The notes under the pieces were generated by a model. The model was given only the letters and a program-made list of their open reading frames with translations. It did not search any database and was not told where the DNA came from. Position numbers and translations under genes: made by a program. Shown here piece by piece: positions 10,678 to 12,989 of a DNA stretch of 64,000 bases. Source of the DNA: a virus; IMG/VR virus record IMGVR_UViG_3300045988_055634, positions 1 to 64,000 of that record. One strand, given 5' to 3'. Within the stretch, counting starts at the first letter, position 1. The number at the start of each line of letters is the position of its first letter.

Positions 10678-10762
10678 ATCCGTGTGGGTGAATGGTTTAG
10701 CCATCAGTCTGCAAAACTGAAAAGAGAAATCTTTAATGAGGGTTCGAATCCCTCCACGGATT
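10678..10762 (+). tRNA. type II (long extra arm) tRNA with GCA anticodon; formally Cys-decoding
   Basis: Acceptor atccgtg/cacggat 7/7, anticodon arm tcagt-ctgcaaa-actga, extra arm aaaga-gaaa-tcttt, T-arm gagggttcgaatccctc; D-stem weak. Confidence 0.6.
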
Positions 10763-10782: not shown

Positions 10783-11418
10783 ATGGCATATATTTATTGC
10801 ATTACAAATTTAATTAATAGCAAGCGATACGTAGGAAAAACTACTACTTCTATAGAAGAGCGCTGGAAGGAACATTGTTATGACTTTTAGAAAGAAAGAT
10901 GCAACAAAAGACCTTTATATGATGCCATGAATAAGTATGGTGTTGAGAACTTTATGATAGAGGAATTGGAATATGTAGATAGTAACTCTGAATTATCTGA
11001 AAGAGAAATCTATTGGATAAAAGAGCTAGGAACTTATGGTTCTAATGGGTACAATGCCTCTAAAGGAGGAGATGGCACTATTCTATACAATCATAGTGAA
11101 ATTGTAGAATTAGCTAGATTGGGATATACTAGTTCTTAGATACAAGAAAAAATAGGGTGCTGTAAAGACACTATTTACAAAGTTTTGAAGGCAAATAATA
11201 TAAAAATTAGAAAAAGTAACGCAAAGTTAATTGCTTAGTATGACTTAGCAGGTAATTTTATACAGGTATTCTTTGGTTCCAGAGAAGCTTAGGAATGGTT
11301 AATTAATAACGGAATTACTGACAATAAATCTGCATAGAGTCATATTATAGGATGCTGTAAGAATAAAACCAAATCATAGTATGGCTACATTTGGAAATAT
11401 CTTCCAGAGCCTATTTAA
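10783..11418 (+). mobile_element. free-standing GIY-YIG homing endonuclease gene whose frame contains 6 in-frame TAG codons
   Basis: N-terminal YIYCITNLINSKRYVGKT...EERWKEH motif; NKYG...YWIKELGTYGSNGYN; HTH-like IQEKIGCCKDTIYKVL; HEG C-terminal signature YDLAGNFIQVFFGSREA / SHIIGCCKNKTKS / YGYIWKY. All in one frame, interrupted only by TAG at 10888, 11137, 11236, 11290, 11335, 11377; ends TAA at 11416. Confidence 0.7.
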
Positions 11419-11564
11419 TCTTTAAATCACTGTTTCGACATTTTCAGTCTAAATGCCGTGTCTGGAGACGTTACCAACCAGTCGTGCTATACGGTTAGAA
11501 TAGTCCGTGCCTCACTGGTGATAGAGGCATCCCTGGGTAGCGGATGTAAAGTAGCTGCCAATAT

Positions 11565-11641
11565 CGTGGAGTAGAGAAGTGGTCATCTCGCTAGGCTCAT
11601 AACCTAGAAATCGTCATAAACGGTTCGAATCCTACCTCCGC
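11565..11641 (+). tRNA. degenerate tRNA-like element with CAT anticodon arm
   Basis: D-arm gaga-agtggtca-tctc, anticodon arm ctagg-ctcataa-cctag and T-loop ggttcgaatcc are present, but the T-stem and acceptor stem do not pair canonically. Confidence 0.3.
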
Positions 11642-11703
11642 AACGAAACTCCTTTTGTGGCTCTGAATTAGATTAATTATTAACAATTTTAAACTTTGAT
11701 GTT

Positions 11704-11885: not shown

Positions 11886-11970
11886 GTATGGTTAGCCAAG
11901 TGGCCGACGGCAGTGGGCTGTTAACCCACCGTGAGAAATCCCATCGCAGGTTCGAATCCTGCACCATACG
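11886..11970 (+). tRNA. tRNA with GTT (Asn) anticodon and an unusually long 16-nt variable arm
   Basis: Acceptor gtatggt/accatac 7/7, anticodon arm gtggg-ctgttaa-cccac, variable region cgtgagaaatcccatc, T-arm gcaggttcgaatcctgc; 85 nt. Confidence 0.6.
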
Positions 11971-12119
11971 CCTTTTTGCTGAATCCTCCTAGTAATATTA
12001 ATCCAGCAAATTCCAAGTCGATGTGAGGAAGAGAGTAACTTGGACGGTAGCTAGCACTGTAGTACGCAATAGTGGGATAGAAACGGCTAGCACCCACTTT
12101 AACTTTTAAATACTAGATT

Positions 12120-12396: not shown

Positions 12397-12634
12397 CCTG
12401 GCAAGGTAAAAATCCATTCGGGGTTTAAGTTGAAGCCAGTCCCTGCGGAATCATAAAGACCTTTTCTGACACGAGAACCGATAGTCGATGAACTGAGAGA
12501 GTAGCATGGTTGCGGACTTATGCTACTAGAACATGATTCAAACAAAAAAAACTTATCTGGTGTTGTTAAGTTGTGGAATCTTAACAGTGGAAATTTATGG
12601 GTATGTCACCAATTAAAAAGAAAATCCCAAAAAT

Positions 12635-12707
12635 GGGCCGTTAGCTCAAATGGCTAGAGCGCTGGTTTTGCACACCGGAAGATAGGGTTCGAGTCCCTGC
12701 GTGTCCA
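12635..12707 (+). tRNA. tRNA-Ala(TGC) with partly mismatched acceptor stem
   Basis: G1G2G3 with G3:U70, D-arm tagctcaaatggctagagc, anticodon arm ctggt-tttgcac-accgg, T-arm tagggttcgagtccctg; base of acceptor stem has 3 mismatches as read. Confidence 0.6.
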
Positions 12708-12917: not shown

Positions 12918-12989
12918 GCGGGATGATAGCAGAGGTAGCTAGTCAGGCTCATAACCTGAAGGTCGTCGGTTCGAATCCGAGTGGGGGAT
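12918..12989 (+). tRNA. tRNA-like element with CAT anticodon arm and no pairing acceptor stem
   Basis: D-arm tagc-agaggta-gcta, anticodon arm tcagg-ctcataa-cctga, T-arm (g)tcggttcgaatccga(g); flanking gcgggat/tggggga cannot pair. Confidence 0.4.

What the first reader, a model, noticed from the sequence alone, without database searches (positions are those of the whole stretch)
11886..11970. tRNA with Asn GTT anticodon and a 16-nt variable region (type-II-like); its loop is also one substitution from Tyr GUA
Perfect 7-bp acceptor stem (gtatggt/accatac), anticodon arm gtggg-ctgttaa-cccac and T-arm gcaggttcgaatcctgc, but 16 nt (cgtgagaaatcccatc) lie between the anticodon stem and T-stem and the element is 85 nt long; tRNA-Asn is normally class I. 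The extra region shares the string gagaaatc with the extra arm of the 10678 tRNA and with the 11565 tRNA-like element (agaaatc), suggesting common ancestry by local duplication. The anticodon loops cuGCAaa and cuGUUaa are both single-step derivatives of cuGUAaa.
Basis: seen in the sequence. Interest (0 to 1): 0.55.

Follow-up and report, generated by a model that had tools for sequence, protein, structure and literature searches.

The report
Phage asparagine tRNA with extra arm
This is a real phage gene for an asparagine tRNA carrying an extra small hairpin arm that textbooks reserve for serine, leucine and tyrosine tRNAs; the same oddity occurs in hundreds of phages, including cultured coliphages, and I found no paper that describes it.

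Summary
Window 11886-11970 is a tRNA gene (Rfam 56 bits; ARAGORN Asn-GTT) with a normal 7/5 cloverleaf, all core invariant bases, discriminator G73 and a 16-nt variable region.

The three local long tRNAs are only 62-67% alike. The nearest relatives of each are tRNAs with the same anticodon in other phages. Element 11565 has a normal 5-nt variable loop. Discriminators follow the anticodon (Asn G73 90/108, Cys U73 19/19) rather than tyrosine's A73.

The tRNA belongs to a large phage family with extra arms. They share an architecture: one unpaired base, a 3-4 bp stem, a GNRA tetraloop and 3-4 unpaired bases. About 600 GenBank phage records hold such a tRNA-Asn, annotated without comment.

In close relatives the same locus holds an ordinary 73-nt tRNA-Asn, so the two forms are swappable alleles. 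The neighbouring long-arm tRNA-Cys is always linked to a GIY-YIG homing endonuclease.

Identity as a working tRNA-Asn is likely (about 0.9). Why the arm exists is inferred. I favour shielding against host tRNA-cutting defences. The main rival is immunity to endonucleases that target tRNA genes.

The parts
11886..11970 (+). tRNA-Asn(GUU) gene, 85 nt including discriminator G73 (11970). CC follows at 11971-11972; the CCA end is not fully encoded.
   Evidence: ARAGORN. Rfam tRNA 56.0 bits, E=1e-10. Own covariance model 97.4 bits. U8, A14, G15, G18-G19, A21, U33, A37 and the GTTCGAATC T loop are read directly from the sequence.
11886..11892 (+). Acceptor stem, 5' strand. Pairs perfectly with 11963-11969 (7 bp).
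   Evidence: In the family alignment this helix is 99.3% paired and all 7 pairs show changes on both sides.
11895..11911 (+). D arm. Three pairs (G11895-C11911, C11896-G11910, C11897-G11909), an A11898/C11908 mismatch and a 9-nt loop AGUGGCCGA.
   Evidence: D helix 99.5% paired in the family alignment.
11913..11929 (+). Anticodon arm GUGGG-CUGUUAA-CCCAC, with anticodon GTT at 11920-11922.
   Evidence: Near-identical relatives carry compensated stems (GCGGG/CCCGC in L021, GCGGG/CCCGU in L065) with an unchanged variable region.
11930..11945 (+). Variable region of 16 nt, the extra arm. C11930 is unpaired. The stem is 11931-11934 with 11939-11942 (three pairs plus one U/C mismatch). The GAAA tetraloop is 11935-11938. 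A11943, U11944 and C11945 are unpaired; C11945 is placed to pair with G15 (11900).
   Evidence: Family architecture: the third rung from the loop is paired in 62/71 sequences against 40 in shuffles. In the model-fitted alignment the arm helix is 78% paired and all 4 pairs show double changes.
11946..11962 (+). T arm GCAGG-UUCGAAU-CCUGC.
11973..12112 (+). Conserved structured non-coding block ('region B'). It travels with the long-arm tRNA-Asn allele and is absent from the class-I allele.
   Evidence: blastn finds it directly after the long-arm Asn in most relatives and beside an ordinary Asn in L011. The 7-bp helix 12012-12018/12038-12044 has 5 pairs with compensatory changes across 8 sequences. 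No Rfam match at E<=1. Missing in L001, where a 73-nt tRNA-Asn occupies the locus.
10678..10762 (+). Neighbouring long-arm tRNA-Cys(GCA), discriminator U73. Its extra arm is AAAGA-GAAA-UCUUU. The same kind of tRNA as the target, but not a copy of it.
   Evidence: A second, ordinary tRNA-Cys lies at 8821-8895.
10783..11418 (+). GIY-YIG homing endonuclease gene: 211 codons, six of them in-frame TAG, starting 20 nt downstream of the long-arm tRNA-Cys.
   Evidence: Pfam GIY-YIG 6e-13. PHROG 314 'homing endonuclease' 2e-30. In-frame TAG positions. Always linked to the long-arm Cys allele in relatives.

Best explanation
Window 11886-11970 encodes a working phage tRNA-Asn(GUU) built on a normal 7/5 cloverleaf. 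A small hairpin capped by a GAAA tetraloop is inserted into the variable loop.

**Identity (likely).** It should be charged with asparagine by the host AsnRS, because it keeps the anticodon G34-U35-U36 and discriminator G73. It would read AAC/AAU codons like the ordinary 73-nt tRNA-Asn that sits at the same locus in sister phages.

**Family and mobility (shown).** It is one member of a large family of phage tRNAs that combine class-I amino-acid identity with an extra arm. The gene moves as a cassette, together with about 140 nt of structured RNA, inside a mosaic tRNA array that also holds homing endonucleases.

**Function of the arm (inferred).** The arm projects from the core three nucleotides after the anticodon stem. 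I think it most likely makes the phage's own isoacceptor a poor substrate for host defence nucleases. These nucleases grip the anticodon stem, variable loop or D-loop face of class-I tRNAs. Examples are PARIS AriB and P2-OLD, which cut after nucleotide 40 and target Thr, Lys and Asn tRNAs. The arm would let translation of Asn codons continue after the host's tRNA-Asn is destroyed.

**Status of each step.** Gene, fold, family, allelic swapping and discriminator rules are shown. Charging, use in translation and nuclease resistance are inferred.
For: **It is a tRNA with Asn identity.**
- Searches identify the gene.
- Core invariant bases are intact.
- The discriminator follows the anticodon across the family. 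Long-arm Asn is G73 in 90/108, against 58/66 for short Asn. Cys is U in 19/19, Lys A in 19/21, Trp G in 9/9, Ile A in 16/16. Phage Tyr is A in 68/71.

**It is under selection.** Within its lineage the anticodon stem changes by compensation while the 16-nt arm stays identical.

**The family is real.**
- They share an architecture and the arm covaries.
- 604 GenBank phage records match the 85-nt tRNA-Asn of Proteus phage Stubb, 518 of them over at least 80% of its length. They include T5-like, T4-like and rV5-like phages of E. coli, Salmonella and Klebsiella.

**The family is phage-associated.** In genome contigs only 21 of 120 pattern hits are long tRNA-Asn. Four of those are archaeal with longer inserts. 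About 13 of the rest lie in arrays of 5-39 tRNAs within at most 8 kb.

**It is functionally equivalent to the ordinary form.** Relatives carry a 73-nt tRNA-Asn at the same position between conserved flanks. Long and short alleles of Cys and Asn occur in all combinations.

**Link to nucleases.**
- AriB cuts tRNA-Lys(UUU), Thr(UGU) and Asn(GUU) between positions 40 and 41. It is modelled to hold the anticodon stem and the D loop (PMC12409363).
- P2-OLD cuts after positions 28 and 40. Phage tRNAs escape it through structural change (PMC12445682).
- Septu cuts a variable loop (PMC13096335).
- In loci chosen only for a long-arm Asn, other extra-arm tRNAs are enriched among ANN-codon readers: 30/282 against 15/418 for other anticodon classes (odds ratio 3.2, p=2.5e-4).

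**No endonuclease next to cultured examples.** The long-arm Asn genes of phages 4MG and Stubb have no homing endonuclease beside them. This favours a benefit at the RNA level.
Against: - No experiment on any long-arm phage tRNA was found.
- The only relevant published assay used class-I T5 tRNA-Asn. Phage Bas34's own long-arm copy has a broken acceptor stem, so it tests nothing.
- Cys, Trp, Ile and Met also carry extra arms, and they are not the known targets of AriB or OLD.
- Half of the long-arm Asn tRNAs keep the host-like UAAUC site, about the same share as short phage Asn tRNAs. The arm therefore does not visibly replace sequence escape.
- In this copy the arm has only three pairs and a mismatch, and it does not fold on its own in silico.
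Confidence: 0.4

Rival explanations
1. Immunity at the DNA level to homing endonucleases that target tRNA genes. GIY-YIG enzymes of the SegB type recognise the invariant T-loop box of tRNA genes and cut nearby. Under this view, an 11-12 bp insertion just upstream of that box changes spacing or sequence, so the gene is no longer cut. The long-arm allele then spreads with the endonuclease as its immune partner. The hairpin shape exists only so that the tRNA tolerates the insertion.
For: - The long-arm tRNA-Cys lies 20 nt upstream of a GIY-YIG gene in the window.
- That pairing is found in every contig that has either partner. Contigs without the endonuclease carry an ordinary tRNA-Cys at that spot.
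- Homologous endonucleases of 43-54% identity sit 19-33 nt after long-arm Cys, Trp and Gln tRNAs.
- A related endonuclease (49% identical) lies 84 nt after the fMet-like tRNA that has a T-stem insertion.
- Of 14 distinct endonuclease-tRNA arrangements, 10 have a long-arm tRNA upstream, against a 29% background (p=0.0014). Five of the 14 are non-canonical long-arm tRNAs, against 13% (p=0.027).
- SegB cuts inside tRNA genes at RAWTSGAAC, the complement of the T-loop box, and is widely linked to tRNA arrays (PMC13096335).
- An endonuclease remnant lies 263 nt upstream of the long-arm Asn in L066.
Against: - No endonuclease gene adjoins the long-arm Asn in the window, in 4MG or in Stubb.
- A T-loop-directed enzyme would threaten all tRNA genes equally, yet extra arms are heavily skewed towards Asn and Cys.
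- The numbers are small, the arrangements are not independent, and the loci were selected for long-arm tRNAs.
- Only one endonuclease family was searched.
Confidence: 0.25
2. A tolerated, nearly neutral insertion, or a general stabiliser. A stable GNRA hairpin in the variable loop does no harm, or merely helps A+T-rich phage tRNAs to fold. It persists by descent and recombination without a specific function.
For: - Extra arms occur in many isotypes and in unrelated phage families.
- Class-I and long-arm alleles replace each other freely.
- The arm of this copy is weak.
Against: - The architecture is uniform (1 unpaired base, 3-4 bp stem, GNRA loop, 3-4 unpaired bases) and is maintained by covariation over more than 100 divergent sequences.
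- The isotype skew is strong.
- Few cellular genome contigs outside dense tRNA arrays carry it.
- The arm sequence is frozen within the lineage while the stems change.
Confidence: 0.15
3. A decoy rather than a translator. The molecule would mainly bind and titrate a tRNA-targeting defence protein or a phage factor, using the GNRA-capped arm as a handle.
For: - PMC12409363 raises the possibility that over-expressed viral tRNAs inhibit AriB.
- GNRA loops are classic docking modules (established RNA knowledge).
- The same array holds tRNA-like genes that look unfit for translation, at 11565-11643 and 12635-12707.
Against: - All elements needed for charging and decoding are intact.
- It replaces the only tRNA-Asn of the array in sister phages.
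- The discriminator tracks the anticodon family-wide.
Confidence: 0.07
4. Deliberate mischarging. The long arm would recruit SerRS (arm plus G73) or TyrRS (G34, U35 and a Tyr-like arm), so that Ser or Tyr is inserted at Asn codons, as with allo-tRNAs or nematode nev-tRNAs.
For: - G73 is also the serine discriminator.
- The arm's junction geometry resembles that of Tyr.
- Allo-tRNAs and nev-tRNAs show that non-cognate extra-arm tRNAs exist (PMC5389517, PMC3333845).
Against: - The arm is 3-4 bp with 3-4 unpaired bases on its 3' side. Phage tRNA-Ser has 5 bp and one unpaired base on each side.
- A disrupted arm stem blocks SerRS (PMC7590224), and this copy has a mismatch in the stem.
- Long-arm Cys has U73, Lys has A73 and Ile has A73. 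Identity therefore follows the anticodon, not a single synthetase.
- The fold is 7/5, not 8/4 or 9/3.
Confidence: 0.05
5. One reading: the three local elements are recent duplicates of a phage tRNA-Tyr whose anticodons drifted by one base.
For: - GCA and GUU are each one step from GUA.
- The octamer is shared by two of the arms.
- The arm geometry is Tyr-like.
Against: - The three elements are 62-67% identical.
- The Asn and initiator-like elements have same-anticodon relatives in other phages.
- Discriminators are G73 and U73, not A73.
- Element 11565 has no extra arm.
- The octamer is widespread in phage variable arms.
Confidence: 0.03

Closest known systems
Phage-encoded tRNA isoacceptors that escape tRNA-targeting defences (T5 tRNA-Lys/Thr/Asn against PARIS AriB; phage tRNA-Thr against P2-OLD; mycobacteriophage anticodon-loop variants)
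   Same: A phage-borne copy of a host isoacceptor, with the same anticodon and presumably the same amino acid, located in a tRNA array. Asn(GUU) is among the documented nuclease targets (PMC12409363, PMC12445682, PMC10264068).
   Different: The known escapes are point changes in the anticodon loop or stem, or a shortened anticodon stem. Here the change is a whole added arm, and no resistance has been measured.
Bacterial class II tRNAs (Ser, Leu, Tyr)
   Same: A variable region longer than 10 nt that forms a stem-loop, and a 3-bp D stem. The arm's junction (1 unpaired base 5', 3-4 unpaired 3') is closest to Tyr.
   Different: The anticodon and discriminator are those of Asn. The arm is shorter than in Ser (3-4 bp against 5 bp). 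GNRA caps are found on 67% of arms against 6% in Tyr.
allo-tRNAs and selC* tRNA-Cys (Mukai et al., PMC5389517)
   Same: [quoted passage not shown]
   Different: Those have 8/4 or 9/3 acceptor/T branches and long anticodon stems, and allo-tRNAs mostly have serine identity. This tRNA is 7/5 and its identity matches its anticodon.
Nematode nev-tRNAs (PMC3333845, PMC4300185)
   Same: An extra arm on tRNAs whose anticodons belong to class-I families.
   Different: They are eukaryotic and are charged with leucine against the anticodon. Here the discriminator argues for cognate charging.
T4/T6 SegB and the T5 tRNA region (homing endonucleases and stable RNAs among tRNA genes)
   Same: A GIY-YIG endonuclease sits inside a phage tRNA array, alleles are swapped between relatives, and structured RNAs of unknown role lie between the tRNA genes (PMC13096335; T5 annotation).
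   Different: No link between these endonucleases and extra-arm tRNAs has been reported. The endonuclease genes here contain in-frame TAG codons.

Membership tests
tRNA (Rfam RF00005) | Cloverleaf with 7-bp acceptor stem, D, anticodon and T arms, and the conserved core bases | tested here: met
   56.0 bits against a gathering score of 29, over the full model. ARAGORN agrees. U8, A14, G18-G19, U33 and the T loop are read.
tRNA-Asn (bacterial identity set, E. coli rules from established knowledge) | Anticodon G34-U35-U36 and discriminator G73 | tested here: met
   GTT at 11920-11922 and G at 11970. G73 in 90/108 long-arm Asn tRNAs.
tRNA-Asn | Aminoacylation with asparagine, directly or through Asp-tRNA-Asn | not testable with these tools
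   Needs a charging assay.
Class II (type II) tRNA architecture | Variable region longer than 10 nt | tested here: met
   16 nt, 11930-11945.
Class II (type II) tRNA architecture | The variable region forms a base-paired arm | tested here: inconclusive
   This copy has three pairs plus a U/C mismatch, and RNAfold gives 0 kcal/mol in isolation. At family level the third rung is paired in 62/71 sequences against 40 in shuffles, and the arm helix is 78% paired with double changes in all 4 pairs.
Bacterial tRNA-Tyr | Anticodon GUA and discriminator A73 | tested here: not met
   The anticodon is GUU and the discriminator G73. Phage Tyr tRNAs have A73 in 68/71.
tRNA-Ser | Long arm of about 5 or more bp with about one unpaired base on each side, plus G73 | tested here: not met
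   G73 is present. The arm is 3-4 bp with 3-4 unpaired bases on its 3' side, against a median of 5 bp and 1/1 unpaired in 135 phage Ser tRNAs.
allo-tRNA / selC* tRNA | 8/4 or 9/3 acceptor/T branch | tested here: not met
   Seven acceptor pairs and five T pairs.
Intron-containing tRNA | Insertion in the anticodon loop (canonically 37/38) or another exon junction | tested here: not met
   The anticodon loop is 7 nt. The extra bases lie between the anticodon stem and the T stem.
Homing-endonuclease / tRNA cassette of the SegB type (context, not the tRNA itself) | A GIY-YIG endonuclease gene embedded in a phage tRNA array | tested here: met
   Pfam GIY-YIG 6e-13 and PHROG 314 2e-30 for ORF 10783-11418. 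There are tRNA genes on both sides.
Homing-endonuclease / tRNA cassette of the SegB type | The enzyme cleaves the tRNA-gene allele of genomes that lack the endonuclease and spares its own | not testable with these tools
   Only the linkage pattern is seen.

The most novel reading that the evidence does not exclude
Phages across many families carry a so far undescribed class of 'armoured' tRNAs. These are ordinary class-I isoacceptors (above all Asn, then Cys, Lys, Thr, Ile and Met) fitted with a short GNRA-capped extra arm. They keep cognate charging, but the arm blocks host tRNA-cutting defence nucleases, tRNA-gene-cutting homing endonucleases, or both. Long-arm and short-arm alleles are traded between related phages as cassettes in an arms race.
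Probability: 0.3. Interest if true: 0.8.

Novelty: new variant of a known kind. Interest (0 to 1): 0.6.

Why it matters
Textbooks restrict the long variable arm in bacteria to tRNA-Ser, Leu, Tyr and Sec. Here an extra arm sits on a tRNA whose identity elements are those of asparagine.

The same design recurs in more than a hundred distinct metagenomic sequences. It also occurs in about 600 GenBank phage genomes, including coliphages such as 4MG and T5-like phages, where it is annotated simply as 'tRNA-Asn'. I found no paper that discusses it.

Two things would follow if the arm protects the RNA from anticodon-arm nucleases, or the gene from homing endonucleases. First, it would be a new, structural way for phages to keep translating under tRNA-directed immunity. 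Second, it would explain part of the long-standing puzzle of why phages carry tRNAs that duplicate host ones.

The idea is directly testable with existing E. coli phages and with cloned PARIS, OLD and Septu systems. It also matters for annotation: isotype models score such tRNAs oddly. And it matters for engineering, because these are natural class-I-identity scaffolds that tolerate an arm.

Tried and rejected
1. **Intron or D-arm insertion.** Rejected by the Rfam alignment.
2. **Alternative fold.** The minimum-free-energy fold extends the anticodon stem (ACGG with CCGU) and collapses the D arm. I judged by eye that the pairing is not kept in relative L015. The family alignment supports the cloverleaf.
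3. **Local duplication and Tyr ancestry.** Rejected.
4. **Amber suppressor.** I asked whether the tRNA explains the in-frame TAG codons of the endonuclease gene. It cannot, because a GUU anticodon does not read UAG. ARAGORN finds no CTA-anticodon tRNA in the window. The odd tRNA-like gene of relatives has no conserved CUA.
5. **T5 and BASEL phage Bas34 as experimental handles.**
   - T5's tRNA-Asn is class I.
   - Bas34's is a long-arm type with three acceptor-stem mismatches, and ARAGORN does not call it.
   - The published PARIS rescue data therefore say nothing about intact long-arm tRNAs.
6. **Retention of the UAAUC site.** Long-arm Asn tRNAs do not keep the AriB-type site more often than short ones (50% against 44%). 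Uninformative.
7. **Rfam on the flanking structured blocks.** No hit at E<=1.
8. **Promoter and terminator scan.** No better than shuffled sequence.
9. **Literature.** Seven full-text searches for long-arm or class-II-like phage tRNAs found no description. The library holds open-access papers only.
10. **Not used.** The metagenome-contig scan, protein-homology searches and structure prediction were not needed.
11. **Correction.** My hand translation of the endonuclease was out of frame for the last 10 or so residues. The correct ORF is 10783-11418, ending ...YGYIWKYLPEPI. The Pfam and PHROG matches lie in the N-terminal 165 residues and are unaffected.
Full report
**1. The observation**

ARAGORN calls it tRNA-Asn(gtt). 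Rfam's tRNA model scores it 56.0 bits (E=1e-10) over its full length and places 12 extra bases in the variable region.

The layout is:
- acceptor stem 11886-11892 with 11963-11969;
- D arm 11895-11911;
- anticodon arm 11913-11929, with GTT at 11920-11922;
- variable region 11930-11945;
- T arm 11946-11962;
- discriminator G at 11970.

U8, A14, G15, G18-G19, A21, U33, A37 and the GTTCGAAT T loop are all in place.

In this copy the extra arm is G11931-C11942, a U/C mismatch, G11933-C11940 and A11934-U11939, capped by GAAA. RNAfold does not form it in isolation.

**2. Setting**

The window is a 36% G+C phage from the human gut.
- It is 97-99% identical to two 'Bacteriophage sp.' faecal scaffolds.
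- It matches IMG/VR contigs of 115-192 kb.
- A 186-kb contig binned as Bacteroides sp. carries the same tRNA lineage.
- The window encodes a replication module that needs no stop-codon read-through: DnaB-like helicase, primase, a family-A DNA polymerase, ligase, anaerobic ribonucleotide reductase and a nicotinamide phosphoribosyltransferase (NAMPT-type).
- It also encodes an OmpA-like protein.
- The first 19 kb hold 15-16 tRNA genes on the + strand.

**3.

The three long elements are 62-67% identical to each other, which is background similarity for tRNAs.

The nearest relatives of 11886 are long-arm tRNA-Asn genes of other phages. L021 and L065 are near-identical, with compensated anticodon stems. 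L015 is 81% identical, and L146 is another relative. Element 11565 groups with initiator tRNAs. The best neighbours of 10678, apart from identical copies, are long-arm Trp and Ser tRNAs at 70-75%.

Element 11565 has the C1xA72 mismatch of an initiator and a normal variable loop, AAAUC. Its extra length is a 6-nt insertion inside the T stem. Its 'agaaatc' is therefore a coincidence of register.

GAGAAATC occurs 7 times in the window against 3.8 expected.

A viral-contig scan for GAGAAATC followed by the T-loop box hit tRNAs with 21 different anticodons. The commonest were Asn 20, Cys 16 and Lys 10. Also represented were Trp, Asp, Gln, Pro, Thr, Gly, Met, Glu and Ile, together with ordinary Ser and Leu. 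The string is simply a common hairpin tip.

Discriminators argue against tyrosine ancestry:

| tRNA group | Discriminator |
|---|---|
| Long-arm Asn | G73 in 90/108 |
| Long-arm Cys | U73 in 19/19 |
| Long-arm Lys | A73 in 19/21 |
| Long-arm Trp | G73 in 9/9 |
| Phage Tyr | A73 in 68/71 |

**4. What it belongs to**

Their variable regions are mostly 15-17 nt. The usual layout is one unpaired base, a 3-4 bp stem, a tetraloop and 3-4 unpaired bases. GAAA caps 46 of 108, GUAA 8 and GCAA 6.

| Isotype (phage) | Median stem | Commonest unpaired 5'/3' | GNRA loops |
|---|---|---|---|
| Long-arm Asn | 3 bp | 1 / 4 (3 next) | 67% |
| Ser | 5 bp | 1 / 1 | 47% |
| Leu | 4 bp | 1 / 2 | 47% |
| Tyr | 3 bp | 1 / 3 | 6% |

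When sequences are anchored on the tetraloop, the third rung is paired in 62/71 of them, against 40 (maximum 47) in shuffles, using five pair types.

I built a covariance model from nine sequences and aligned 150 matches.
- Overall, 96.1% of cells pair, against 56.5% in shuffles and 37-46% when partners are slid.
- The arm helix is 78% paired, and all four of its pairs show double changes.
- This alignment is fitted to the model and so leans towards it.

Extra arms also occur on other isotypes without the GAGAAATC motif.

In loci selected only for a long-arm Asn, extra arms on other tRNAs are commoner among ANN-codon readers (30/282) than among other anticodon classes (15/418). The odds ratio is 3.2 and p=2.5e-4. 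Cys has them in 9/29.

**5. Cultured phages and cells**

blastn with the window tRNA found annotated tRNA-Asn genes in Escherichia phage 4MG (86 nt, arm UGGA-GCAA-UCCA), Proteus phage Stubb (85 nt, arm GUUC-GAAA-GAAC) and others.

The Stubb gene matches 604 GenBank phage records, 518 of them over at least 80% of its length. These are T5-like, T4-like and rV5-like phages of Salmonella, Klebsiella and Escherichia. Where annotated, the gene is labelled only 'tRNA-Asn'. T5 itself has a 78-nt class-I Asn with a different body.

- Only 21 are long tRNA-Asn.
- Four of those are archaeal, with longer inserts that look like introns (not examined further).
- About 13 of the remainder sit in arrays of 5-39 tRNAs within at most 8 kb, which look like phage or prophage DNA.

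**6. Alleles and cassettes**

In MT837398 (L001) the flanks are conserved up to the tRNA. The locus then holds an unrelated 73-nt class-I tRNA-Asn and lacks the next 140 nt or so.

That block, 11973-12112, lies directly downstream of the long-arm Asn in most relatives that carry it. In L011, ARAGORN finds only an ordinary Asn nearby. Its 7-bp helix has five compensatory pairs.

Among 13 related contigs, long-arm and short-arm alleles of Cys and Asn occur in all combinations.

The long-arm Cys lies 20 nt upstream of a GIY-YIG homing endonuclease gene, 10783-11418. It is linked to that gene wherever either is present. Contigs without the endonuclease carry a class-I Cys there.

An iterated tblastn search found 32 homologues of the endonuclease. 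In 14 distinct arrangements with a tRNA no more than 150 nt upstream, 10 of the tRNAs have a long arm against a 29% background (p=0.0014). Five are non-canonical long-arm tRNAs (Cys twice, Trp, Gln and the fMet-like gene) against 13% (p=0.027). These numbers are small and the sample is biased.

**7. Mechanism**

*Shown.* This is a conserved, selected tRNA gene with Asn identity elements and an extra arm. It is a member of a large phage-associated family and is exchangeable with a class-I allele.

*Inferred.* It is charged by AsnRS and reads AAY codons. The frequency of such genes in phages of E. coli suggests that enterobacterial AsnRS accepts them.

*Why the arm exists.* I rank the candidate explanations as follows.

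(a) Protection of the RNA from host nucleases that grip the anticodon-stem, variable-loop and D-loop face.
- AriB cuts Lys(UUU), Thr(UGU) and Asn(GUU) at 40|41 and is modelled to contact the D loop (PMC12409363).
- P2-OLD cuts after positions 28 and 40 and is evaded by structural change (PMC12445682).
- Septu cuts a variable loop (PMC13096335).

(b) Immunity of the gene to SegB-like endonucleases that recognise the T-loop box (RAWTSGAAC, PMC13096335).

(c) Neutral tolerance.

Explanation (a) fits the Asn/Lys/Thr bias and the absence of endonucleases beside the long-arm Asn in 4MG, Stubb and this window. Explanation (b) fits the Cys-endonuclease linkage. Neither has been tested.

Mischarging by SerRS or TyrRS is unlikely, given the short mismatched arm, the junction geometry and the anticodon-matched discriminators (PMC7590224).

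**8. Comparison and novelty**

It works like the phage escape isoacceptors of T5 and of the mycobacteriophages, but with an added arm rather than point changes. It resembles class II tRNAs in form only. It fails the defining 8/4 or 9/3 feature of allo-tRNAs and the A73/GUA features of tRNA-Tyr.

Seven full-text searches found no description of extra-arm class-I-identity tRNAs in phages. The library covers open-access papers only. I rate it a new variant of a known kind, with interest 0.6.

Noticed in passing
window 10783-11418: The GIY-YIG homing endonuclease ORF contains six in-frame TAG codons (10888, 11137, 11236, 11290, 11335, 11377). Read as Gln, it gives a clean GIY-YIG match. The replication genes of the window need no TAG read-through, and ARAGORN finds no CTA-anticodon tRNA in the window. 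A second endonuclease in relative L001 (2948-3577) also has in-frame TAGs.
   Followed up: partly
window 11565-11643: An initiator-like tRNA: C1xA72, anticodon CAT, normal variable loop AAAUC. It has a 6-nt insertion (AUAAAC) in the 5' strand of the T stem and a C51xU63 mismatch. It is conserved at 97-99% in the related contigs that carry it (four variant sequences) and may not function in translation. In L001 an endonuclease cassette is inserted right after it, with a 14-nt duplication TCCTACCTCCGCAA.
   Followed up: partly
window 11421-11564, 11973-12112 and 12397-12634: Three conserved non-coding blocks lie between tRNA genes and have no Rfam match. Block 11973-12112 has a 7-bp helix (12012-12018 with 12038-12044) with five compensatory pairs. 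They recall the 'stable RNAs of unknown function' annotated among the tRNA genes of phage T5.
   Followed up: partly
window 12635-12707 and 12926-12981: A tRNA-Ala-like gene (anticodon TGC, Rfam 39.5 bits) has three mismatches at the base of the acceptor stem but keeps G3:U70. A partial tRNA match (model positions 9-63, 32.9 bits) lies further on. ARAGORN calls neither.
   Followed up: no
L002 3658-3739 (- strand); L021 6753-6835: Relatives carry a tRNA-like gene with a 15-nt anticodon loop. ARAGORN labels it Ser(act) in one contig and Tyr(ata) in another. The loop sequence is not conserved between contigs and has no conserved CUA.
   Followed up: partly
window 8821-8895 versus 10678-10762: The phage carries two tRNA-Cys(GCA) genes, one ordinary and one with an extra arm. 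For Asn, by contrast, the window holds only the long-arm form.
   Followed up: yes
L356 12599-12681 (Escherichia phage SelmaRatti = BASEL Bas34, MZ501103 about 72598-72680): The annotated 77-nt tRNA-Asn is really a long-arm type (arm GUC-GAAA-GAC). Its acceptor stem has three mismatches and ARAGORN does not call it. This may explain why Bas34 needed plasmid-borne T5 tRNA-Asn for rescue from PARIS in PMC12409363.
   Followed up: partly
Viral loci, e.g. L003, L016, L034, L035 (Ser-like); L017, L027, L041, L049, L090 (Ile): Some phage tRNAs with serine-type bodies carry A34 anticodons ACT or AGA; the AGA ones have C at position 33. Some tRNA-Ile(TAT) genes of 90-94 nt have variable regions of about 20 nt with loops resembling CAGAUUAG.
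   Followed up: no
L226 1234-1317 (Escherichia phage 4MG): The annotated 84-nt tRNA-Lys owes its extra length to an enlarged D arm rather than a variable arm. About 170 nt of unannotated sequence lies between it and the long-arm tRNA-Asn.
   Followed up: no
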